The notes: generated by a model from the sequence alone, not told the origin. DNA of 64,000 nucleotides from an uncultured bacterium (GCA_903906305.1 CAIVJR010000003.1:58875-122874); one strand, 5' to 3'; shown: positions 1 through 10,243, counted from the first letter of the stretch. Numbers and translations: made by a program.

Positions 1-3000
1 CCTCCAATGGGATGGACACAATATTCTGCACTTGATGGTTACTTTCCATATGGAGCTGCAGCATTTGGAACCGTGAATGGAGCTACAACACACAATCATG
101 CTATCGCTACGAAGACCTCTGGAGCCAGAATTGGTGCAGTAACCTGTGCAACCACAACCCCAACCACAAACAAACAAAGAGCACATACACATACCACACC
201 CGCAACAACTACTACTGATGTTTCTAACAATCCTCCATATATTGAAACCATATTCATACAAAAGAAAACCTCTCAATCCATAACCTTCAATGGAGAGGAA
301 ATGAAAAATGAGGCCCCAACAGCACCAACTGCACTTTACACAGAAGGTACGACAGACCCTAATAGAGTAATTGATTCAACCCCAGAATTCAGTGCAGTAT
401 TTAATGATCCTAATTCAATAGATTCTGCAAGTTACTATCAAATTCAAGTAAATACAGCTTCTGATTTTACTGGAACAATCATGTGGGATTCTACACAGAC
501 ATCACTTTCTCCAGAAGTTGCAACCGGTGTCAGATCGCAAGATATCTCATATGCGGGTTCTGCATTACAAGAAGGAGCAACATATTACTGGAGGATAATG
601 TTTTGGGATAATAATACGACGCAAGGAGTACTTTCAAGTCCATGGTCTGCAACCGCAGAATTTACAATGAATACAACACCAAACGCACCTACAGCCTTAC
701 TTACAGAAGGAGCAACCAATCCAAATAACGTGTCAGATCTTACTCCAGAATTTAGTGCAATATTTAGTGATCCTGATAGCACTGATACTGGGAATTTCTA
801 TCAAATAGAGGTTAATACCGCTTCAGATTTCACTGGTACTGTTATGTGGAATTCTACACAAACTGCATTAACACCTACGGTAGCAAATGGAGCAAGATCA
901 CAAGATATATCATATGCTGGTTCTGCACTACAAGAAGGAATTCTATACTATTGGAGGATAAGTTTCTGGGACAATGCTGGATCACAGAGTTCACTTTCAT
1001 CAACAGCACAATTCCTTATAAATACAGAACCAAATGCCCCTACAAGTCTACAAACAGAGGGTCTAACGAATCCAACAAACTTAACCGACTTCACGCCTGA
1101 TTTTAGTGCAATCTTTAGTGATCCAAATGCTTCAAATGTTGGAAGTCATTACCAGATAGAAGTAAGCTCAACCTCAGACTTCAGTGGAACCGCAATATGG
1201 GATTCTACTCAAACATCCTTAACACCAACAATAGTTAATGGAGCAAGATCACAGGATATCACATATGCAGGGCCTACTCTAAATGCATATTTTACTTACT
1301 ATTGGAGAATAAAATTCTGGGATAACCATGGTTTAGAAGGCGCATGGTCATCAACAGCTCAATTTAGTCTTGTTGTAACAACATGGCAAAATCCTAACTT
1401 ACAATACAAGATGCCTGTAATAGTAGCTAATACAACTGGTTCTACACTTACTAACGAAGATACTTTGATACAGGTAGATACAGCAACACTAATAGCTGCT
1501 GGAAAGATGCAGGCTGATTGTGATGATATTAGATTCTACGATGGAGATGATACTACTACTTTACAATATTGGGTGGAAGGGAAATGTAACACATCATCTA
1601 CACAGATATGGGTTAGAGTACCCTCTATACCAAATGGTGGAAAAACAATTTACATGTACTACGGAGATCCTACTGCAGTTAATGCAGCTCAATCATGGAG
1701 TGGAAATGTAATCATGTTTGCAGATGCTACATGTCCTACAGGATGGACGAGAGCAGCTGATTTAGATAACAAATTCCTTTACGGCGGAACTACATATGGG
1801 ACTACCGGAGGTGGTACAAGCCATACTCACAGTGATGCGATATGTACTTCTTCATCGATATCAACTACTAATATCGCAGGAACAATTGGAGGCGTATTAT
1901 CATCAACAACAATAACTCATACACATACAAGCTTAAGAGCTACACTACTTAGCGCTACTGTTGTTCCACCATATACAGGCATGGTGGCCTGTTACAGTAA
2001 TACCTTCCTCTTTTCTCAGGGATTGATTTCTATGTTCAATACAGATGCTCCTTCTGGATGGACGAGATTTTCAGCATTAGATAACAAATTCCCAGAGGCT
2101 ATGACTACATATGGATCCACAGGAGGAGCAAACACACATACTCATTCAACTACTACTGGATATACAACCGGAATAGCAAGTGCAACACAATCCGTAGCTC
2201 CTGTTTTTCAAGCTACTGGAGGAGCTATAACATACTCTGGTGGATATACTATACATACTTTTACCACAAGCGGAACATTTACACCTCCGGCCTCAAAAGC
2301 TGTCGACTTTTTGGTTGTTGGAGGTGGTGGAGCCGGAGGTTGGTCAACAGCTGACTGTCTTGGTGGTGGTGGTGGAGGAGGTGGTGGTGTACTATCTCAA
2401 TCAGGATATACTGTAAATGCACAGGCATACTCGATAACCGTCGGAGGACAAGGTGGAAGCTCAGTTTTCTCATCATTTACAGCAACTGGAGGAGGAGCCG
2501 GTGGAAACTACGGAGATGGGAATGGGTATGGAGGTGGAAGTGGAGGTGGAAGCATGGCAGCAAATAAAGCTCCAGGATCCGGAACTGCAGGGCAAGGAAA
2601 TGGTGGTGGATATGGATTTGGGGATATGGGATACACTTGTACAGGTGGTGGTGGTGGTGGTGGTGCCGGAGGAGGCGGTGGTGGTGCAGGAGGTTACAAC
2701 GCACCTGGTGGTGGTGGTGCAGGATTTACATCTAGCATTAGTGGTACAAGTCAAACCTATGCTGCAGGAGGAATGGGTGGTTATGCAAATGGAGGTGGTA
2801 CAAGTGCAAGTGGAGCAGCGAATACAGGAAACGGTGGAAATGGTGGAAATGGAATCGGTGGAGCCTATGGATCTGGCGGATCTGGAGTTGTAATAATCAG
2901 ATATCTTACCTCAACAGGTAGTGGTAATATGGCCTCAAGCACTCATACCCATCTTTCAGCTAGTGCAACTCCTTCAACAGTATCAAACCTTCCTCCATAT

Positions 3001-6000
3001 CTTGATATGGTATTTGCAAAAGCAAACACAGATCAATATGTAACTGGGAATAATATATTAATAACAAATGTAATACCTCCATTAGGATGGAATAGATTTA
3101 CTACGCTAGATAATAAATTTGCGAGAGGAGCTGTTACCTATGGTGGAAGTGGCGGTGCTACTACGCATGTTCATAGTACAAGTATAACTACTGGGGCTCC
3201 ATCTGCAACTATCGATGGAGGAGGAGCTGGGACAAACTATGCAGATTCCACACATACTCATTCCTGTGCAGTAGCCTCCGATACTGGCTCGAACATGCCA
3301 ACATACACAACCGTCATATATGCACAAAGAAAGACATCACAAACTACAACTTTTAGCTCAGAGCAATTAGGAAATATAGCTCCAAACGTTCCAACAAATC
3401 TTCTTACCGAAGGAACAACCAATCCAAGTGAGATAGAGGATACTACTCCAGAATTTAGTGCTATTTTCTCAGATCCTGATGTTACCGACTCAGGGATTGA
3501 ATACCAAATTCAAATAAATACAAACTCTAATTTTACTGGAGCTACAGTTTGGGATTCTAACCAAACAACTTTTACAACTGTAGCTAATGGAAACCGCTCT
3601 GAAGATATTTCATATTCAGGCCCAGCATTAAGTCCTTCATTCCCATACTACTGGAGAATTAGATTCTGGGACAACAGTGAGAAGGGAAGCAGAGTAAGTG
3701 AATGGTCATCAACAGCATCATTCTCCATAAAAACAACTACTTGGCAAATATTTGATGCTCCATACCGATTACCAATAATTGCAGCCAATACTTCAGGCTC
3801 AACACTTACTAATGAAGATGTGTTAGTTCAAATAGATACAGCTACCCTAATTGCAGCGGGGAAGATGCAAGCTGATTGTGATGATATTAGGTTCTACGAT
3901 GGTGATGATACTACTGCATTACAATATTGGGTGGAAGGAAAGTGTAATACTGATTCTACACAAATATGGGTTAGAGTTCCTTCATTACCAAATGGTGGAA
4001 AAACAATATATATGTACTATGGAGATCCAGCAGCTACAAATGGGGAAGAGGCATGGACAGGAAATGTAATCATGTTTGCAGATACTACATGTCCTACAGG
4101 ATGGACTAGGGCAGCAGATTTAGATAACAAATATCTTTACGGAGGAACTACATATGGAACCACTGGAGGAGGTACAAGTCATACTCACAGTGATGCAATA
4201 TGTACTTCTTCATCAATATCAACTACGAATATTGCTGGAACAATTGGAGGTGCACTCTCGGCTACAGCTACAACACATACACATACAAGTTTAAGAGCTA
4301 CATTACTCAGTGCTTCTGTAGTTCCTCCTTACACTGGTATGGTTGCTTGTTACAGTAATACATTCCTACTTTCCCAAGGACTAATCTCTATGTTTAACAC
4401 TACAACTCCATCTGGATGGACTAGATTCTCAGCATTGGATAGCAAGTTCCCAGAGGCTATGACTACATACGGATCTACAGGAGGAGCAGACACACATACT
4501 CATTCAACGACGACTGGATATACCACTGCTGGACCTAATGCTACTCAATCCGTAGCTCCTGCATTTCAAGTCACCGGAGGAACAATTAGTACATCAGGTT
4601 CATATACAATACATACGTTTACATCCAGTGGGACGCTTGGTGTTACAGGCTCTGGAACTGTGGATGTATTTGTAGTTGGCGGAGGTATTACTCCCGGAGG
4701 TACTACAGGAGGGAATGGTGGACAAGTTGTATACAATGCTTCATATTCTGTTTCCACCGGAGGTATTTCAGTTACAGTTGGAGGAGCAAATGCCAATTCT
4801 GCTTTTGGTGCTATTACAGCAACAGCAGGTGGGGGAGCTGCTGGTGGTGCAGGAGGAAATGGAGGTTCACGTAGATACGGTTTACCCGGAGCAGATGGAA
4901 CTCTCTCACCAATAGATGGCCTTTATTATGGTGGTGGTGGTGGTGGTGGTGCAGATGGAGATGGAGAATGGTGGGGCGGAGCAGGAGGAAATCGGGGTGG
5001 GGGCTCAGGGGGAAATCTTTTTTGGTATGAACCATGGAGTAAATTTGTTCCTGTCGCTGGGTCAGCTGGAACCGCTAATACTGGTGGCGGTGGTGGTGCC
5101 GGTGCATATCAAAGTTATTATGGACAAGCTGGTGGCGGAGCGGGAGGATCTGGCATTGTAGTAGTTAGATACCTAACAGTACAATCAGGAAGTGGAAGTA
5201 TGGCATCAAGTACACATACCCATACTTCAACAAGTTCGACTCCTTCTACAGTATCAAATCTACCCCCATATTTAGATATGGTATTCGCCAAAGCAAACAC
5301 AGACCAATATGTAACTGGGAATAATGTATTAATAACCTCCGTACTACCTCCTTTAGGGTGGGGTAGATTTACACCATTAGACAGCAAATTCACAAGAGGA
5401 TCCGCAACATATGGAACATCAGGTGGATCTACAACACACGTACATAGTACAAGTATAACAACAGGGGCTCCATCAGCCACGATTGATGGAGGTGGAACTG
5501 GAACAAACTACGCAGATGCCACACATACACATTCCTGTTCTGTAGCATCAGACACTGGATCAAACATGCCCCCATATACAACAGTCATATATGCTCAAAG
5601 AAAAACTTCACAAACAACAACTCCGGGAATAGAACAGATCGGAAATATAAAACCAGACAATCCTTCCGCTCTACTTGTAGAAGGATTATCCAATCCATTA
5701 AATGTAACAGATACTACACCTGAGTTCTCAGCAATATATACCGATGGAAATGTTGCCGATGTTGCTCGATACTATCAAATTCAAGTCAATACAACCTCTG
5801 ATTTTACTGGAACAACAAAATGGGACTCTACAAAAACAGAATATACCCCAGTTGTAACCAACGGGAATAGATCCCAAGACATATCATACGCAGGAACCTC
5901 TTTAGATGCAGGCACAACATACTACTGTAGAATTAAGTTTTGGGATAATAGCAGTTTCGGCGAAAAAGAGAGTGATTGGTCAGCTATCAATTCATTCATA

Positions 6001-6405
6001 ATGCAAGCGCCACCCAATACACCAACGGCACTCCAGACCAACAATATGGTTAATCCAACCGTATTAACTAAATCTCCTCCATCATTTACAGCATTGTACT
6101 CAGATGTAAATGAGGACAATGCTTCTGCCTACCAAATAGAAGTAAATACAAGTCCACTCTTTAACGGAACAGTAATGTGGGATTCTGGAAAGGTCGCTAC
6201 TACAATCGTAAGTGGGCAAAGATCTCCATCATATGAATACAATGGAACGCAATTAACAAACACTAATGCAACCCTTTACTGGCATATTAAATTCTGGGAT
6301 ACCATAGATGCTCCAAGTGAATGGTCTAATGTAGCACAATTCCAAGATACAGTAACACATACATATTATGAAGGATTGAAGCTAAATGGCCTAAAACTCG
6401 ATTAA
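1..6405 (+). CDS. Giant extracellular repeat protein, 5'-truncated at the window edge (frame from nt 7). FN3-like modules, DUF2341-like domain, phage tail-collar (MdpB)-like domains, Gly-rich blocks
   Basis: Continuous 2132-aa ORF with no start codon inside the window. Repeated ~115-aa modules each ending in YYWRI.FWDN. The block DCDDIRFYDGDD..QYWVEGKC..IWVRVP..GGKTIYMYYGDP resembles the DUF2341 consensus. Repeated P.GW.R...LD.KF..G.TYG..GG..THTHS and PPY...VIYAQ motifs resemble the phage tail collar domain. Long GGGGAGG low-complexity stretches. Confidence 0.8.
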   Translation, partial: PPMGWTQYSALDGYFPYGAAAFGTVNGATTHNHAIATKTSGARIGAVTCATTTPTTNKQRAHTHTTPATTTTDVSNNPPYIETIFIQKKTSQSITFNGEEMKNEAPTAPTALYTEGTTDPNRVIDSTPEFSAVFNDPNSIDSASYYQIQVNTASDFTGTIMWDSTQTSLSPEVATGVRSQDISYAGSALQEGATYYWRIMFWDNNTTQGVLSSPWSATAEFTMNTTPNAPTALLTEGATNPNNVSDLTPEFSAIFSDPDSTDTGNFYQIEVNTASDFTGTVMWNSTQTALTPTVANGARSQDISYAGSALQEGILYYWRISFWDNAGSQSSLSSTAQFLINTEPNAPTSLQTEGLTNPTNLTDFTPDFSAIFSDPNASNVGSHYQIEVSSTSDFSGTAIWDSTQTSLTPTIVNGARSQDITYAGPTLNAYFTYYWRIKFWDNHGLEGAWSSTAQFSLVVTTWQNPNLQYKMPVIVANTTGSTLTNEDTLIQVDTATLIAAGKMQADCDDIRFYDGDDTTTLQYWVEGKCNTSSTQIWVRVPSIPNGGKTIYMYYGDPTAVNAAQSWSGNVIMFADATCPTGWTRAADLDNKFLYGGTTYGTTGGGTSHTHSDAICTSSSISTTNIAGTIGGVLSSTTITHTHTSLRATLLSATVVPPYTGMVACYSNTFLFSQGLISMFNTDAPSGWTRFSALDNKFPEAMTTYGSTGGANTHTHSTTTGYTTGIASATQSVAPVFQATGGAITYSGGYTIHTFTTSGTFTPPASKAVDFLVVGGGGAGGWSTADCLGGGGGGGGGVLSQSGYTVNAQAYSITVGGQGGSSVFSSFTATGGGAGGNYGDGNGYGGGSGGGSMAANKAPGSGTAGQGNGGGYGFGDMGYTCTGGGGGGGAGGGGGGAGGYNAPGGGGAGFTSSISGTSQTYAAGGMGGYANGGGTSASGAANTGNGGNGGNGIGGAYGSGGSGVVIIRYLTSTGSGNMASSTHTHLSASATPSTVSNLPPYLDMVFAKANTDQYVTGNNILITNVIPPLGWNRFTTLDNKFARGAVTYGGSGGATTHVHSTSITTGAPSATIDGGGAGTNYADSTHTHSCAVASDTGSNMPTYTTVIYAQRKTSQTTTFSSEQLGNIAPNVPTNLLTEGTTNPSEIEDTTPEFSAIFSDPDVTDSGIEYQIQINTNSNFTGATVWDSNQTTFTTVANGNRSEDISYSGPALSPSFPYYWRIRFWDNSEKGSRVSEWSSTASFSIKTTTWQIFDAPYRLPIIAANTSGSTLTNEDVLVQIDTATLIAAGKMQADCDDIRFYDGDDTTALQYWVEGKCNTDSTQIWVRVPSLPNGGKTIYMYYGDPAATNGEEAWTGNVIMFADTTCPTGWTRAADLDNKYLYGGTTYGTTGGGTSHTHSDAICTSSSISTTNIAGTIGGALSATATTHTHTSLRATLLSASVVPPYTGMVACYSNTFLLSQGLISMFNTTTPSGWTRFSALDSKFPEAMTTYGSTGGADTHTHSTTTGYTTAGPNATQSVAPAFQVTGGTISTSGSYTIHTFTSSGTLGVTGSGTVDVFVVGGGITPGGTTGGNGGQVVYNASYSVSTGGISVTVGGANANSAFGAITATAGGGAAGGAGGNGGSRRYGLPGADGTLSPIDGLYYGGGGGGGADGDGEWWGGAGGNRGGGSGGNLFWYEPWSKFVPVAGSAGTANTGGGGGAGAYQSYYGQAGGGAGGSGIVVVRYLTVQSGSGSMASSTHTHTSTSSTPSTVSNLPPYLDMVFAKANTDQYVTGNNVLITSVLPPLGWGRFTPLDSKFTRGSATYGTSGGSTTHVHSTSITTGAPSATIDGGGTGTNYADATHTHSCSVASDTGSNMPPYTTVIYAQRKTSQTTTPGIEQIGNIKPDNPSALLVEGLSNPLNVTDTTPEFSAIYTDGNVADVARYYQIQVNTTSDFTGTTKWDSTKTEYTPVVTNGNRSQDISYAGTSLDAGTTYYCRIKFWDNSSFGEKESDWSAINSFIMQAPPNTPTALQTNNMVNPTVLTKSPPSFTALYSDVNEDNASAYQIEVNTSPLFNGTVMWDSGKVATTIVSGQRSPSYEYNGTQLTNTNATLYWHIKFWDTIDAPSEWSNVAQFQDTVTHTYYEGLKLNGLKLD
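319..1377 (+). repeat. Three tandem ~345-nt coding repeats, each an FN3-like module
   Basis: Protein blocks NAPTAL.TEG.TNP...TPEFSA.F.DP....YQI.VNT.SDFTGT..WDSTQT.L.P....G.RSQDI.YAG..L....YYWRI.FWDN occur three times in succession. Confidence 0.7.
1378..3735 (+). repeat. Super-repeat unit A (~2358 nt) inside the giant gene
   Basis: The protein segment TTWQNPNLQYKMPVIVANTTGS...through the FN3 module is repeated almost verbatim starting at nt 3736. Blocks longer than 30 aa are identical between the two copies, e.g. AAGKMQADCDDIRFYDGDDTT and CPTGWTRAADLDNK.LYGGTTYGTTGGGTSHTHSDAICTSSSISTTNIAGTIGG. Confidence 0.75.
3736..6010 (+). repeat. Super-repeat unit B, with a diverged Gly-rich core and tail FN3 modules
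   Basis: Same domain order as unit A, at a period of 2358 nt. The first ~320 nt of the window match the end of a preceding third copy (PLGW..F..LD.KF.RG..TYG..GG.TTH.HS ... NMP.YTTVIYAQRKTSQ). Confidence 0.7.
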
Positions 6406-6424
6406 TTGTAGTATAATACATGCC

Positions 6425-7183
6425 ATGAGTTTAAAAATAGAGTCATTCAAAAAAATAAGAAAAGATAAAAAGAAGTGGAAAGTCGAAACTCCTGAAGAAT
6501 TCGAGGAGCGAGAAGATACATTTCTTAAAAAACGATTACTAGGTAAAGAGCCTACAATTAACACATTTGTACGAATAACGGGTGGCAAAGCTAAAAACTA
6601 TAGAATCGATATACCTAAGACAACAAGACCACTAACTGACAGAATGAAAGTGAGAATCTTCGATATATTAAGAGAAGATGTAGTAAACAAAAAAGTCTTA
6701 GATCTCTATGCAGGAGCAGGCTCATTTGCCCTAGAAGCACTCTCAAGAGGAGCAAGTGAAGCAACAGTAGTAGATGCATCTAAAAATGCAGAATTTGTAC
6801 TCAAAAGAAATGTCGCATACACAGGTTTCTTACCACAAGTAGATATCATTAAAGCTAAGGCTGAAGAATATCTCTTTAAACAAATCAACGATGAAGAAAG
6901 ACAGTCATTTGATATCGTCTTCATGGATCCCCCATACAAACTTTACAACACAAAGAACCTTTTCAAAATGGAAAGAGTTATAAATATGGCAGCACAAATG
7001 TTAAATGGTGTTATGGACCCACAAACGAAGGAATTTAAAGGTACACTCATAGTCAAACATCCAAGAAGATACCCATTAGAAAAATTAACACTAGTTGGGA
7101 TAAAGAAATTAGAAACAGTAGAAATTGGACTAAATTCAATTTCATTCTTCATAGTAGATAACACATTGCAAAAAGAAAGCTAA
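6425..7183 (+). CDS. rsmD: 16S rRNA (guanine966-N2)-methyltransferase RsmD
   Basis: RsmD-type N-terminus followed by the LDLYAGAGSFALEALSRGA SAM-binding motif and the DPPY catalytic motif (FMDPPYKL). Confidence 0.85.
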   Translation: MSLKIESFKKIRKDKKKWKVETPEEFEEREDTFLKKRLLGKEPTINTFVRITGGKAKNYRIDIPKTTRPLTDRMKVRIFDILREDVVNKKVLDLYAGAGSFALEALSRGASEATVVDASKNAEFVLKRNVAYTGFLPQVDIIKAKAEEYLFKQINDEERQSFDIVFMDPPYKLYNTKNLFKMERVINMAAQMLNGVMDPQTKEFKGTLIVKHPRRYPLEKLTLVGIKKLETVEIGLNSISFFIVDNTLQKES

Positions 7184-7333
7184 AAATATAGAATAACAAT
7201 ATGTACAAAATATACGGAATCAATAAAAACATCCTCTGCCGAATCGTTTATACCACACGAACCTTTTAAAAATGTCGCTTGTACTTTTTCCCAAAAGAAA
7301 AACCCTTTAAATTAAGATATACTAAACATAGAT

Positions 7334-9100
7334 ATGAATAAGGAAAATATTGAAAAATTAGAAAGAATGAGGCATTCAGCCTCCCATGTATTAGCTCAGG
7401 CCGTTTTGAAACTATATCCTGATGCAAAATTAGGCATTGGCCCCGCAATAGATAACGGTTTCTACTATGATTTTGAATTCTCCGAGCCAATAACAGAAGA
7501 AGATCTCCCAGCAATAGAAAAGGAGATGAAAAATATAATCAAACAAAATCTTCCAATCGTCCAGGTCTTTATGAAGCGAAAAGAAGGTGTAGATTACCTT
7601 ACAAAAACTGGTCAAACCTACAAATTAGAATTACTTGAAGATATTCCTGACGAAGATTTAAGCTTCTTCATAACTGGAGAAAATGAATACGCAGACCTCT
7701 GTAGAGGACCACATATTGAAAGCACAAAGCAGATTGGTGTTGTGAAGCTATTAAAAACCGCTGGTGCATATTGGAGAGGTGATGAAAAGAAAAAAATGTT
7801 AACCAGAATATATGGAACCGCATTTGAAACTAAAGAAGAGCTCAAAGCATTCTTAGAATTACAGGCAGAATCAGAGCGAAGAAATCATAGAACACTTGGA
7901 AAACAGTTAAAGCTGTTTGCAATAATTCCTGAAATAGGACAAGGCCTACCAGTATGGTTACCAAGAGGATACAGAATGAGAAGAATTCTTGAAGAATATA
8001 TGTTGGATCTTGAAAGAGATGCAGGATATGAGCATATCTTAACTCCACATATTAATAGAGAAGAGCTTTTCAAAATATCCGGTCACCTTGGTTTCTACAA
8101 AGATTCTATGTATCCACCAATTGATATTGATGGCGAAAGATACTATCTAAAACCAATGAATTGTCCTGCAGGCATAATGGTCTACAAACTAGAGCCAAAG
8201 AGCTACAGAGATTTGCCATACAAGCTTGGCGAGTTTGGAACAGTATATAGATATGAGAAATCAGGCGAATTACATGGATTACAAAGAGTAAGAGGATTTA
8301 CACAAAATGATGCGCATATCTTCTGCACAGAAGAACAGTTAGAAAGCTCAATTGATGAGATTTTAGATCTTTTAGATACCTTCTACAAAGATGTTGGATT
8401 TGATAAATACAAATTTAGACTCTCTATTTCTGATTGGGATAAGAAAAAAGATCATTATGCTGGAGATCAAGCAAAATGGATATTAGCTGAAGAAACTTTA
8501 AGAAAAGTTTTAAAGAATAGAGGACTTGAATACGAAGAAATAGCTGGAGAAGCTGCATTCTACGGACCAAAGATTGACGTACAAGCTTACAATGTCTTTG
8601 GAAAAGAAGATTCCGTTTCCACCATACAGTTGGATTTCAATCTCCCTGAAAGATTTGATATTAAATATATAGATGAAAACGGAGAAGAGAAACAACCATA
8701 TATGATTCATAGAGCATTGCTAGGATCCTTTGAAAGATTCTTCTCATTCCTCATTGAACATCATGGTGGAGACTTCCCACTCTGGTTTACACCAGAGCAG
8801 GTATATGTCATTCCTATCTCTGAAAAGCATAGAGAATATTCTGACAATGTATACAAAGATCTTAAGAATGCAAAACTTAGAGTAAAACTAGATGACAGGA
8901 ACAAAAGTATGCAATCCAAGATTAGAGATGCAGAAAAGATGAAGATCCCTTACATCGTAATCATTGGAGACAAAGAGATGGAAACTGAGACAATATCAAT
9001 CCGAACCAGAAAAACTAAAGACCAAGGATTGATGAAGGTTCAAGAATTCATAGATACCCTTAAGGAAGAAATCCGAACGAAGGGTAATCCCACAAATTAA
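7334..9100 (+). CDS. thrS: Threonyl-tRNA synthetase. N2 editing domain present, N-terminal TGS domain absent
   Basis: RHSASHVLAQAV...GIGPAIDNGFYYDF (editing-domain HxxxH). Class II core with KPMNCP, FYGPKIDV and HRALLGSFERF. Followed by infC-rpmI-rplT as in the conserved operon. Confidence 0.92.
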   Translation: MNKENIEKLERMRHSASHVLAQAVLKLYPDAKLGIGPAIDNGFYYDFEFSEPITEEDLPAIEKEMKNIIKQNLPIVQVFMKRKEGVDYLTKTGQTYKLELLEDIPDEDLSFFITGENEYADLCRGPHIESTKQIGVVKLLKTAGAYWRGDEKKKMLTRIYGTAFETKEELKAFLELQAESERRNHRTLGKQLKLFAIIPEIGQGLPVWLPRGYRMRRILEEYMLDLERDAGYEHILTPHINREELFKISGHLGFYKDSMYPPIDIDGERYYLKPMNCPAGIMVYKLEPKSYRDLPYKLGEFGTVYRYEKSGELHGLQRVRGFTQNDAHIFCTEEQLESSIDEILDLLDTFYKDVGFDKYKFRLSISDWDKKKDHYAGDQAKWILAEETLRKVLKNRGLEYEEIAGEAAFYGPKIDVQAYNVFGKEDSVSTIQLDFNLPERFDIKYIDENGEEKQPYMIHRALLGSFERFFSFLIEHHGGDFPLWFTPEQVYVIPISEKHREYSDNVYKDLKNAKLRVKLDDRNKSMQSKIRDAEKMKIPYIVIIGDKEMETETISIRTRKTKDQGLMKVQEFIDTLKEEIRTKGNPTN

Positions 9101-9130
9101 TATATTTAAATTTAAAAATACAAAAATTTA

Positions 9131-9724
9131 ATGGGATATAGTGAGAACAATAACAGTAATTACAATAAAGGACAGTTCGTTAAGAAGGATTTAGGTCCTA
9201 GAAAGAACGAATGGATCCGAGTACCTGAGGTACAATTAATCGGTGCTGAAGGAGAAAACTTAGGAGTGGTAGAAACTCCAAAAGCAATGATATTAGCACA
9301 AGAGGCAGGTTTAGATCTAGTAGAGGTAGGCGCAACTGCAAAACCACCTGTATGCAAAATTATGGATTTCTCCAAGTTTGTATACCAACAAAACAAGAAG
9401 AAAAAGGCAACATTAGTGAGCTCAAAGATGAAAGAACAGAAGGAATTTAGATTTACACCAGTCATGGATATTGGAGATACAAGCCACAGAATCAAGCGAG
9501 CACAAGAATTTTTAGAGAAAGGACACCCAGTTAAGCTCACAATGGTCAAGAAAGGGAGACAATCCAAGGAAATAGCTCAATCAGTTTTTGCTGAAATATT
9601 GACTAATTTCGCAGATTATAGTAGTATCGAAGCCGAACCAAAGATGGAGAATAACCGTATATCTTTAACATTCAGACAAAATGGCAAGACAAAAAACAAA
9701 CAAAACAGCGAAGAAGAGAATTAG
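9131..9724 (+). CDS. infC: Translation initiation factor IF-3
   Basis: EVQLIGAEGENLGVV..AQEAGLDLVEV..AKPPVCKIMDFSKF matches the IF3 N- and C-domains. Sits in the thrS-infC-rpmI-rplT context. Confidence 0.9.
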   Translation: MGYSENNNSNYNKGQFVKKDLGPRKNEWIRVPEVQLIGAEGENLGVVETPKAMILAQEAGLDLVEVGATAKPPVCKIMDFSKFVYQQNKKKKATLVSSKMKEQKEFRFTPVMDIGDTSHRIKRAQEFLEKGHPVKLTMVKKGRQSKEIAQSVFAEILTNFADYSSIEAEPKMENNRISLTFRQNGKTKNKQNSEEEN

Positions 9725-9893
9725 GCTATCTAACCCAAGAGGGAACAGACCAGCTAAACTTAGATACAAACAGAGTTGCCAAGGTCACTTAAAGACTAAA
9801 AGGTCCTCTAGATCTAAGAGAAGACAGAAATCAAATGCAATCATAACTGGTGCAAATGAGAAGAAAATGATTCGAAAAGTAATTAATCTGTAG
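9681..9893 (+). CDS. rpmI: 50S ribosomal protein L35
   Basis: Basic 70-aa protein MARQKTNKTAKKRIRLS..., an L35-like N-terminus. Overlaps the infC 3' end by 44 nt in another frame. Confidence 0.8.
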   Translation: MARQKTNKTAKKRIRLSNPRGNRPAKLRYKQSCQGHLKTKRSSRSKRRQKSNAIITGANEKKMIRKVINL

Positions 9894-9904
9894 AAATATA
9901 AGTC

Positions 9905-10243
9905 ATGAGAGTCAAAGGTGGAACAGTAAGATCAAGAAAACATAATAAAATCCTAAAGGCAACTAAGGGATACAGAATGAGCAAAAATCATTTATATAGA
10001 GTTGCACACGAAGCTTTCATGCACGCTGGTCAATATGCATACAATGCAAGACAGAAGAGACAAGCACAGATTAGAAAACTTTGGATAAACAGAATCAATG
10101 CAGCATGTAAGAACAATGGTATTCAATACAAGGACTTAATCGGTGGAATGAAAACAAAGAATATTGAATTAAATAGAATGGTATTAGCAGATATTGCATA
10201 CAACAATCCTTCAGTCTTTACATTTGTAGTAAAATCTCTTTAG
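9905..10243 (+). CDS. rplT: 50S ribosomal protein L20
   Basis: MRVKGG.VRSRKHNKILK.TKGYR...RQKRQ..RKLWI.RINAA is the L20 signature. Confidence 0.92.
   Translation: MRVKGGTVRSRKHNKILKATKGYRMSKNHLYRVAHEAFMHAGQYAYNARQKRQAQIRKLWINRINAACKNNGIQYKDLIGGMKTKNIELNRMVLADIAYNNPSVFTFVVKSL

What the first reader, a model, noticed from the sequence alone, without database searches (positions are those of the whole stretch)
1..6405. Giant surface protein built from two near-identical ~2.36-kb tandem super-repeats, each combining DUF2341-like, phage tail-collar-like, Gly-rich and FN3-like modules
- The ORF runs to the window edge, so the protein is longer than 2132 aa.
- The protein segment TTWQ...DCDDIRFYDGDD...CPTGWTRAADLDNK.LYGGTTYGTTGGGTSHTHS...PSGWTRFSALD.KFPEAMTTYGSTGGA.THTHS...[Gly-rich]...PLGW.RFT.LD.KF.RG..TYG.SGG.TTHVHS...NMP.YTTVIYAQRKTSQ is repeated almost verbatim with a 2358-nt period (units start at nt 1378 and 3736). 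The window begins inside the tail of a third copy.
- P.GW...LD.KF...TYG..GG..H.HS followed by PPY...VIY resembles the phage tail collar (MdpB / T4 gp36-like) domain.
- A protein that alternates tail-collar-like domains with DUF2341-like and FN3-like modules could be an adhesin or host-attachment protein. This fits an episymbiotic lifestyle.
- Such long, near-perfect tandem repeats are unstable under recombination and are often collapsed or expanded in assemblies.
Basis: partly seen in the sequence, partly recalled or inferred. Interest (0 to 1): 0.7.

Follow-up and report, generated by a model that had tools for sequence, protein, structure and literature searches.

The report
Modular giant surface protein of Patescibacteria
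This is the 3' end of a real gene for a very large, probably membrane-anchored surface protein of an ultra-small (CPR/Patescibacteria) bacterium, built from repeated units that combine a phage-fibre-type glycine-rich domain with an unannotated histidine-rich module that always comes in threes; it is most likely an adhesin.

Summary
The ORF is real. It is open from nt 1 to the stop at 6403-6405 (2134 codons in the window).

The units are not near-identical. They share 80% nt and 85% aa identity in the scaffold, about 35% in the Gly-rich core, and 67% aa overall. The longest exact repeat is 24 nt. An independent contig (L019) is collinear across both units, so an assembly artefact is very unlikely.

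- **PxGW/2xHxH/PPY modules:** a large unannotated family (2436 cluster representatives) that occurs in threes or sixes (154 of 165 proteins). All 12 histidines are 91-100% conserved. AlphaFold2 gives pLDDT 93-99, and no solved structure matches.
- **Locus:** the gene sits in a conserved Patescibacteria locus but diverges much faster than its neighbours.

Best reading: a multivalent adhesin. That function is inferred, not shown.

The parts
1..6405 (+). 3' part (2134 codons + stop) of one giant ORF. The 5' end lies outside the window; about 370 codons are missing, judged by collinearity with L012.
1..270 (+). Third PxGW/HxH/PPY module of an upstream unit ('unit 0'), cut at the window edge.
   Evidence: Local hmmsearch with the module profile, 74.9 bits. 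L012 shows the full unit 0 after a membrane anchor.
316..1374 (+). Three Ig_Rha78A_N-type Ig-like domains (nt 316-672, 679-1023, 1030-1374).
   Evidence: Pfam PF25788, E 3.3e-81, 6 stretches. Boundaries.
1378..1698 (+). DUF2341 domain of unit 1.
   Evidence: Pfam PF10102. Boundaries.
1699..2004 (+). Unit 1, module 1 of the triplet (CPTGW ... HTH ... HTH ... PPY).
   Evidence: 107 bits to the module profile. pLDDT 93-98.
2014..3030 (+). Unit 1, module 2 of the triplet, split by the Gly-rich insert. The module halves lie at nt 2014-2310 and 2794-3030.
2263..2904 (+). Unit 1 Gly_rich_2 domain (beta-sandwich plus glycine-rich part), inserted between the two HxH motifs of module 2.
3043..3336 (+). 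Unit 1, module 3 of the triplet (PPLGW ... HVH ... HTH ... PTY).
   Evidence: 109 bits. pLDDT 93-99.
3382..3732 (+). Ig_Rha78A_N-type domain between units 1 and 2.
3736..4056 (+). DUF2341 domain of unit 2.
4057..4362 (+). Unit 2, module 1.
   Evidence: 105.7 bits
4372..5301 (+). Unit 2, module 2, split by a second, strongly diverged Gly-rich domain (nt 4621-5172).
   Evidence: Module halves. Gly_rich_2 scores only 19.8 bits, E 8.7e-4, below the 24.3-bit cut-off. About 35% identity to the unit 1 core.
5314..5607 (+). Unit 2, module 3.
   Evidence: 108.5 bits
5653..6351 (+). Two C-terminal Ig_Rha78A_N-type domains (nt 5653-6003, 6013-6351).
6352..6405 (+). Short C-terminal tail (...THTYYEGLKLNGLKLD) and stop codon. 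There is no LPXTG-type sorting signal.
   Evidence: Sequence. No Pfam hit.

Best explanation
The region encodes most of a very large cell-surface protein of a Patescibacteria (CPR) bacterium. About 2500 aa are expected in full. The protein is probably held in the membrane by an N-terminal hydrophobic anchor. It extends outward as a chain of repeated units, each with the order DUF2341, a triplet of ~100-aa PxGW/2xHxH/PPY modules, and then one to three Ig-like spacer domains.

The triplet is the real structural unit. It is a compact all-beta domain of about 320 aa with 12 near-invariant histidines. I infer that these histidines clamp metal ions between the three modules, as HxH motifs do between the three chains of phage tail fibres.

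In units 1 and 2 the variable loop of the middle module carries a Gly-rich domain of the kind that forms the receptor-binding tip of phage tail fibres. The two copies are different and each is conserved with its own orthologue. The protein would therefore present at least two distinct binding heads and act as a multivalent adhesin or host-recognition protein of an episymbiont.

Shown: the ORF, the domain content, the triplet rule, the structural match of the Gly-rich domain, the conserved locus, and the fast divergence. Inferred: surface display, metal binding, the pseudo-trimeric packing, and adhesion.
For: - **ORF and repeats:**
- **Domains:**
- **Relatives:** typical relatives (950-1270 aa) have an N-terminal hydrophobic anchor, DUF2341, three modules and Ig repeats. 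L012 and L014 start with MKLSKKT(I/L)IIGISTL.VAGA.LA.YF.
- **Size of the module family:** 2436 / 1140 / 307 cluster representatives at E<=1e-3 / 1e-10 / 1e-30.
- **Triplet rule:** the module count is a multiple of three in 154 of 165 proteins, and adjacent modules lie back to back, a median of 8 residues apart.
- **Histidines:** all 12 His are 91-100% conserved over 147 triplets.
- **Stand-alone version:** three tandem genes in L028 each encode one module.
- **Structure prediction:** AF2 with 68 sequences gives mean pLDDT 84.3, pTM 0.68, and pLDDT 93-99 for the modules.
- **HxH motifs:** they coordinate iron between the three chains of the T4 gp37 fibre (PMC11705849).
- **Locus:** the gene lies upstream of RsmD-ThrRS-IF3-L20-PheST in L013, L014 and L018, and upstream of RsmD-ThrRS-IF3 and an unscanned 108-aa ORF on the shorter contig L019. 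Flanking proteins are mostly 90-97% identical to L014 (PheT 83%). The gene body is only about 48% identical and has 2 units instead of at least 3.
- **Paralogues:** units differ mainly at third codon positions. Gly1 and Gly2 are 92% and 67% identical to their L019 orthologues but only about 35% to each other.
- **Literature:** large DUF2341-bearing Patescibacteria proteins have already been proposed as adhesion or host-interaction factors (PMC11809585).
Against: - There is no experimental evidence for localisation, binding or metal content.
- The N-terminus of this particular protein is outside the window. The anchor is inferred from relatives.
- I could not inspect the model coordinates, so the packing of the three modules and the geometry of the histidines are untested.
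- The Gly-rich tips are not uniformly the fastest-evolving parts. Gly1 is 92% identical to its L019 orthologue, more than the Ig spacers.
- DUF2341 and Ig_Rha78A_N also occur in glycan-related proteins, so glycan binding unrelated to host attachment is possible.
- The triplet also occurs in proteins labelled Actinomycetota and in one with a T9SS sorting signal. It is therefore not specific to episymbionts.
Confidence: 0.55

Rival explanations
1. It is a structural cell-envelope or S-layer-like protein. The repeated beta-domains build or space a surface layer and do not recognise a partner cell.
For: - The protein is a long chain of beta-sandwich domains with an N-terminal anchor in relatives.
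- The gene sits at a fixed chromosomal position among housekeeping genes in several lineages.
- It lies 20 nt upstream of the next gene.
Against: - The gene body diverges far faster than its neighbours (about 48% aa against mostly 90-97%), and unit number changes between close relatives. This is more typical of interaction surfaces.
- The Gly-rich domain matches receptor-binding fibre tips.
Confidence: 0.15
2. It is a glycan-binding or nutrient-capture protein. Its domains bind environmental or host polysaccharide for feeding, without mediating cell-cell attachment.
For: - Ig_Rha78A_N is the N-terminal domain of alpha-L-rhamnosidases.
- Relatives combine the same modules with Laminin_G_3, H_lectin and BNR-type domains.
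Against: - No catalytic domain is present. The NCBIfam rhamnosidase hits cover only the Ig part (174.7 bits against an 1800-bit cut-off).
- Nothing in the window protein matches a known carbohydrate-binding module family.
Confidence: 0.12
3. The PxGW modules are genuine phage tail-collar domains, and the gene is a phage or prophage tail-fibre gene, or a recent capture of one.
For: - There is a collinear motif resemblance to collar-type tail proteins, with HHalign scores above shuffled controls.
- P0123 is a possible intermediate.
- The Gly-rich domain is common in viruses.
Against: - Pfam Collar is far below threshold in all modules.
- The modules have no PHROG family, and tblastn finds no match to them in 50,697 phage records.
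- The neighbours are housekeeping genes in conserved synteny across Patescibacteria.
- No phage genes were found among the 20 other window ORFs scanned.
Confidence: 0.04
4. The duplication is an assembly artefact: one unit was wrongly written twice.
For: Related contigs often break inside this gene, so it is hard to assemble.
Against: - The copies are only 80% identical in nt, and the longest exact repeat is 24 nt.
- Substitutions are concentrated at third codon positions (121 of 180 and 56 of 87), so both copies are under purifying selection.
- The independent JGI contig L019 is collinear with window nt 2381-10229 at 82% identity over 7878 columns. That span covers the unit 1 core, all of unit 2 and the downstream genes.
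- L012 and L014 are also multi-unit.
Confidence: 0.02

Closest known systems
Phage tail-fibre tip proteins with a TNF-like + glycine-rich domain (cyanophage Pam3 gp24, PDB 7YPX; mycobacteriophage Bxb1 gp33/gp29, 9D93; Pfam Gly_rich_2 PF21722; more distantly the ALK glycine-rich domain, GRD)
   Same: - The unit 1 Gly-rich domain passes the Pfam threshold.
- In Pam3 gp24 this domain is held responsible for recognising the host receptor (PMC9608196).
   Different: - Here the domain is not at the end of a trimeric fibre. It is inserted in a loop of the middle module of a single-chain triplet.
- It sits in a cellular, chromosomally encoded protein and is present twice in diverged form.
- The unit 2 copy falls below the Pfam threshold.
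Phage tail-collar / MdpB-type tail proteins (Pfam Collar PF07484; T4 gp12; Anabaena phage A-1(L) long tail fibre gp34, PDB 8KEC)
   Same: - The motifs come in the same order: beta-strand + PxGW, a (P)D.R/K.F.RG motif, GG..HxH, further HxH motifs in a variable stretch, and a C-terminal N.(Q/P)PY..V..I strand.
- HHalign scores above shuffled controls.
   Different: - The ~32-residue collar core is missing.
- The HMM score is far below threshold, and HHalign probability is only 9-45%.
- No structural match was found.
- Phage proteins are homotrimers with one copy per chain. Here three copies are fused in one chain.
T4 gp37-type HxH metal sites in trimeric fibres
   Same: HxH motifs are almost invariant, and there are six per triplet. 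In gp37, HxH pairs from the three chains coordinate iron (PMC11705849).
   Different: No metal, geometry or trimer-like packing has been shown here. It is an inference from the rule of three.
Large DUF2341/FhaB-bearing proteins of Patescibacteria discussed for Patescibacterium danicum (PMC11809585)
   Same: Both are very large proteins of the same phylum carrying DUF2341, and both were proposed to serve adhesion or host interaction.
   Different: - No FhaB domain is present here.
- That paper does not describe the PxGW/HxH triplet or the Gly-rich insert (text search).
Alpha-L-rhamnosidase N-terminal Ig domain (Ig_Rha78A_N, PDB 6I60)
   Same: The six spacer domains belong to this Pfam family and align to 6I60 residues 31-128.
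   Different: No glycoside hydrolase catalytic domain is present. The NCBIfam rhamnosidase score is 174.7 bits against an 1800-bit cut-off.

Membership tests
Phage tail collar domain (Pfam PF07484) | Score at or above the Pfam gathering threshold (24 bits) | tested here: not met
   8.2 bits, E 3.2 on the best window module. The best of 44 modules has E 0.14. No precomputed Collar hit in 120 homologues, and none in the 68 members of A4.
Phage tail collar domain (Pfam PF07484) | Conserved core CDG..(S)..Y..LF..IG..YG.GDG..TF.LPDLRGR | tested here: not met
   HHalign places a ~32-column gap over this core. Only strand+PxGW and an LDxKFPRG remnant align.
Phage tail collar domain (Pfam PF07484) | Fold similarity to solved collar-bearing fibres (T4 gp12, A-1(L) gp34) | tested here: not met
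Phage tail collar domain (Pfam PF07484) | Part of a homotrimeric virion fibre | tested here: not met
   The gene is chromosomal and sits among housekeeping genes in conserved synteny. No phage record or PHROG family matches the modules.
DUF2341 (Pfam PF10102) | Score at or above the gathering threshold (23.4 bits) | tested here: met
   126.9 bits, E 4.3e-37, two copies. 71.3 bits for unit 1 alone.
Gly_rich_2 (Pfam PF21722) / phage fibre-tip glycine-rich domain | Score at or above the gathering threshold (24.3 bits) | tested here: met
   Unit 1 scores 38.8-42.2 bits. Unit 2 scores only 19.8 bits, E 8.7e-4, so it is not met for that copy.
Gly_rich_2 (Pfam PF21722) / phage fibre-tip glycine-rich domain | Fold similarity to solved fibre tips | tested here: met
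Gly_rich_2 (Pfam PF21722) / phage fibre-tip glycine-rich domain | Binds a receptor on a target cell | not testable with these tools
   This needs binding experiments.
Ig_Rha78A_N (Pfam PF25788) | Score at or above the gathering threshold (27.4 bits) | tested here: met
   268.8 bits, six copies.
Alpha-L-rhamnosidase (NCBIfam NF041572/NF041573) | Full-length equivalog score, including the catalytic domain | tested here: not met
   174.7 bits against an 1800-bit cut-off. The hits cover only the Ig part, model positions 28-135 of 946.
Fibronectin type III (Pfam PF00041) | Pfam hit | tested here: not met
   There is no fn3 hit in the window protein at E<=1. Some relatives do carry fn3.
HxH metal sites of trimeric phage fibres (T4 gp37 type) | Conserved His-x-His motifs | tested here: met
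   There are six HxH per triplet, and each His is 91-100% conserved in 147 triplets.
HxH metal sites of trimeric phage fibres (T4 gp37 type) | Three HxH pairs converge on one metal ion | not testable with these tools
LPXTG (sortase)-anchored Gram-positive adhesins | C-terminal LPXTG motif + hydrophobic segment + charged tail | tested here: not met
   The C-terminus is ...THTYYEGLKLNGLKLD. No Pfam hit.
FhaB-type large exoproteins | FhaB / haemagglutinin repeat domains | tested here: not met
   No such Pfam or NCBIfam hit.

The most novel reading that the evidence does not exclude
The PxGW/2xHxH/PPY triplet is a single-chain, pseudo-threefold copy of the trimeric collar/HxH region of phage tail fibres. 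Three modules, fused or encoded by three adjacent genes as in L028, pack around an axis. They are clamped by two His6 metal sites and display receptor-binding domains, such as the Gly-rich tip, from the middle module. CPR bacteria and DPANN archaea would then carry a monomeric cellular version of a viral host-recognition device on their surface proteins.
Probability: 0.2. Interest if true: 0.75.

Novelty: new variant of a known kind. Interest (0 to 1): 0.55.

Why it matters
How ultra-small episymbiotic bacteria recognise and hold on to their hosts is largely unknown beyond type IV pili.

This gene gives a concrete candidate with separable parts that can be tested:
- Two different phage-fibre-type binding heads.
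- A scaffold domain that is widespread (over 2400 sequence clusters, including a DPANN archaeon) yet matches no Pfam, NCBIfam or PHROG family and has no solved structure.

The strict rule of three and the 12 invariant histidines give a clear structural hypothesis, a metal-clamped pseudo-trimer. One crystal structure or one metal analysis could settle it.

The contrast between a conserved locus and a fast-changing, unit-gaining gene also makes it a possible marker of host range among related Patescibacteria.

Tried and rejected
- **First AF2 run (17 sequences):** the modules reached only pLDDT 35-50, so that part of the model was unusable. A 68-sequence alignment fixed this.
- **Second homologous-protein search, with the module profile:** it returned only 4 small proteins. 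This was low yield for family size, but it gave the single-module proteins P0121 and P0123.
- **Module profile against PDB sequences:** no hit at E<=10.
- **P0230 against PDB sequences:** only noise.
- **Pfam Gp10_C hit in P0230:** it scores 31.5 bits and overlaps one module, but no single stretch passes on its own. I treated it as a weak lead only.
- **PHROG phrog_2295 hit (5e-34):** isolated modules do not hit it, so the Gly-rich part probably drives it.
- **AlphaFold DB fold search:** the library was unavailable.
- **Idea that the Gly-rich tips are the fastest-evolving parts:** not borne out for Gly1, which is 92% identical to its orthologue.
- **Prophage origin and assembly artefact:** rejected, as set out under the rival explanations.

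Full report
**1. Observation**

Frame 1 of the + strand is open from nt 1 to the stop at 6403-6405, which gives 2134 codons. The protein is therefore cut by the window edge.

A k-mer offset count, equivalent to a dot-plot, peaks at 2358 nt / 786 aa. A second peak lies at 2271 nt / 757 aa.

The copies are not near-identical.
- A global alignment gives 67% aa identity.
- The DUF2341 + module scaffold is 80% nt / 85% aa identical.
- The Gly-rich cores are about 35% identical with several indels. The unit 2 core is 29 aa shorter, which is why the offset changes.
- The longest exact repeat in nt 1-6405 is 24 nt.

**2. Anatomy**

Pfam finds three families in the window protein:
- Ig_Rha78A_N, six copies, E 3.3e-81.
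- DUF2341, two copies, E 4.3e-37.
- Gly_rich_2, one copy above threshold.

The second Gly-rich region reaches only 19.8 bits against a 24.3-bit cut-off. The NCBIfam rhamnosidase hits cover only the Ig part and are far below their cut-offs, so this is not an enzyme.

Between DUF2341 and the Ig domains lie ~100-aa modules with this pattern: strand, PxGW, LDxKF, YGxTGG, HxH, a variable stretch, HxH, PPY, strand. Seven such modules lie in the window.

The order along the window is:
- the third module of an upstream unit;
- three Ig domains;
- unit 1: DUF2341, module 1, module 2 split by the Gly-rich domain, module 3;
- one Ig domain;
- unit 2, with the same layout as unit 1;
- two Ig domains and a short tail without a sorting signal.

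**3. The tail-collar question**

Pfam Collar scores 8.2 bits (E 3.2) on the best window module. The best of 44 modules from the family reaches E 0.14. None of 120 homologues has a precomputed Collar hit.

I built a Collar alignment from ten phage tail proteins and compared profiles.
- HHalign gave 22% probability over 17 columns, covering only strand+PxGW.
- With a 365-module profile it gave 31-45% probability and a score of 25.9. Sixty column-shuffled controls gave 9.5 +/- 2.0 with a maximum of 16.
- With full-length collar proteins the alignment ran end to end and four motifs fell in the same order. Probability was only 8.6%.
- The ~32-residue collar core is absent from the module.

One single-module protein, P0123, carries PTGWEICNGSNGTPDLRSKF. 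It hits Collar at E 0.0012 over profile positions 1-22, and it is also hit by the module profile. It looks like an intermediate form.

My reading is that membership in the Collar family fails, while a very distant relationship to collar-type tail proteins is possible but unproven.

**4. The triplet**

A full HMMER scan of 1.84 billion representatives with the module profile found 2436 proteins at E<=1e-3, 1140 at E<=1e-10, and 307 at E<=1e-30.

In the best 141 representatives plus the close family:
- The module count is a multiple of three in 154 of 165 proteins. There are 135 with three and 19 with six. The exceptions are mostly fragments or proteins with a degenerate module.
- Adjacent modules lie back to back, a median of 8 residues apart.
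- Over 147 triplets all 12 histidines are 91-100% conserved. They rank with the Trp of PxGW and the Pro of PPY as the best-conserved positions.

One contig (L028) has three adjacent genes. Each encodes a conserved N-terminal segment plus a single module, and the three products are 50-56% identical to each other.

The triplet is therefore an unannotated domain with no relative found among solved structures. That the three modules pack as a pseudo-trimer clamped by His6 metal sites, as in T4 gp37 (PMC11705849), is my inference. I could not read the model coordinates.

**5. The Gly-rich domain**

This domain is inserted between the two HxH motifs of module 2.
- BFVD holds 105 viral matches at E<=1e-3, nearly all named glycine-rich domain proteins.

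**6. Context and evolution**

Downstream genes are housekeeping genes: an RsmD-like methyltransferase, ThrRS, IF3, L20, PheS/PheT, a class A PBP, HisRS and MutS. The window also carries type IV pilus genes.

All eight related genome loci come from Patescibacteria MAGs labelled Saccharibacteria, Dojkabacteria or unclassified. In L013, L014 and L018 the homologue sits directly upstream of RsmD-ThrRS-IF3-L20-PheST. On the shorter contig L019 it sits upstream of RsmD-ThrRS-IF3 and a further 108-aa ORF that was not scanned.

- **L014:** its flanking proteins are mostly 90-97% identical to the window (PheT 83%). The surface gene body is only about 48% identical in aa and has two units in 1707 aa.
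- **L012:** this is the closest relative in the gene body (about 77%). It starts with a hydrophobic anchor and a Gly-less first unit. Its collinearity implies that about 370 aa are missing from the window.
- **L019:** this independent JGI contig is collinear with window nt 2381-10229 at 82% identity over 7878 columns.

Differences between the two units are mostly at third codon positions. Each Gly-rich core resembles its own L019 orthologue (92% and 67%) far more than its paralogue. The duplication is therefore old and maintained by selection, not an artefact.

Several related contigs break inside this gene. Copy number in other MAGs should be read with care.

**7. Function**

The best-supported reading is a membrane-anchored, modular, multivalent adhesin or host-recognition protein. 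Ig and DUF2341 domains would act as spacers. The triplets would act as rigid scaffolds. Two different Gly-rich heads would act as binding sites.

This agrees with earlier suggestions for large DUF2341 proteins of Patescibacteria (PMC11809585). It rests on homology and context only.

The rivals are a structural envelope protein, a glycan-binding protein, a phage tail gene and an assembly artefact. They are weighed in their own sections; the last two are largely excluded.

**8. Novelty**

Giant putative adhesins in CPR bacteria are known as a class. Three things appear to be new here:
- the definition of the PxGW/2xHxH/PPY module family and its rule of three;
- its possible distant link to trimeric phage collar proteins;
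- the grafting of a phage-fibre-type Gly-rich head into its middle module.

No paper in the searched library links these elements. I rate it as a new variant of a known kind, of moderate interest.

Noticed in passing
L028:759-2348: Three consecutive co-directional genes each encode a ~175-aa protein. Each has a conserved N-terminus (MAWTTP..TGT.ITAAIWN..) and exactly one PxGW/2xHxH/PPY module. The three paralogues are 50-56% identical. This is an unfused 'three genes, one module each' version of the triplet.
   Followed up: partly
P0123 (142 aa; no window coordinates): This single-module protein carries PTGWEICNGSNGTPDLRSKF. The module profile hits it at E 2.7e-5, and Pfam Collar hits it at E 0.0012 (19.2 bits, profile positions 1-22). 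It may be an intermediate between phage tail-collar proteins and the module.
   Followed up: partly
L012, L016, L017 (ORF runs off the contig end); L019:1 (contig starts inside the Gly-rich domain): Four of nine related loci are truncated inside this gene. It is a frequent assembly breakpoint in metagenomes, although the window copy itself looks sound.
   Followed up: partly
window:47656-52266 (- strand): A type IV pilus gene set is present: PilC-like (T2SSF) and two T2SSE ATPases, one of them with an MshEN domain (PilB-like). This fits a Patescibacteria episymbiont.
   Followed up: no
window:6076-13507 vs L014:5912-13371: Identity to the Patescibacteria MAG contig JAHISI010000078.1 is 85% nt from the last ~330 nt of the surface gene onward. 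Upstream of that point it drops abruptly to 64-72%, with rearranged matches.
   Followed up: yes
P0136 (5808 aa, MBN2422330.1) and P0211 (5472 aa, RJQ31340.1): The triplet also occurs in a giant DUF2341 protein labelled Candidatus Woesearchaeota (DPANN archaea) and in one labelled Actinomycetota. P0235 combines it with a T9SS sorting signal.
   Followed up: no
window:55597-58404: In GyrA the DNA_topoisoIV domain is matched in two stretches, which may indicate an insertion.
   Followed up: no
window:17959-18657 and window:60993-62597: These ORFs of 232 aa and 534 aa have no Pfam hit.
   Followed up: no
window:2453-2893 (+), 2473-2754 (-), 4916-5161 (+), 5118-5480 (-): These ORFs of 81-146 aa lie in alternative frames and overlap the GGN-rich Gly-domain coding regions. 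They are most likely by-products of the biased composition and not genes.
   Followed up: no
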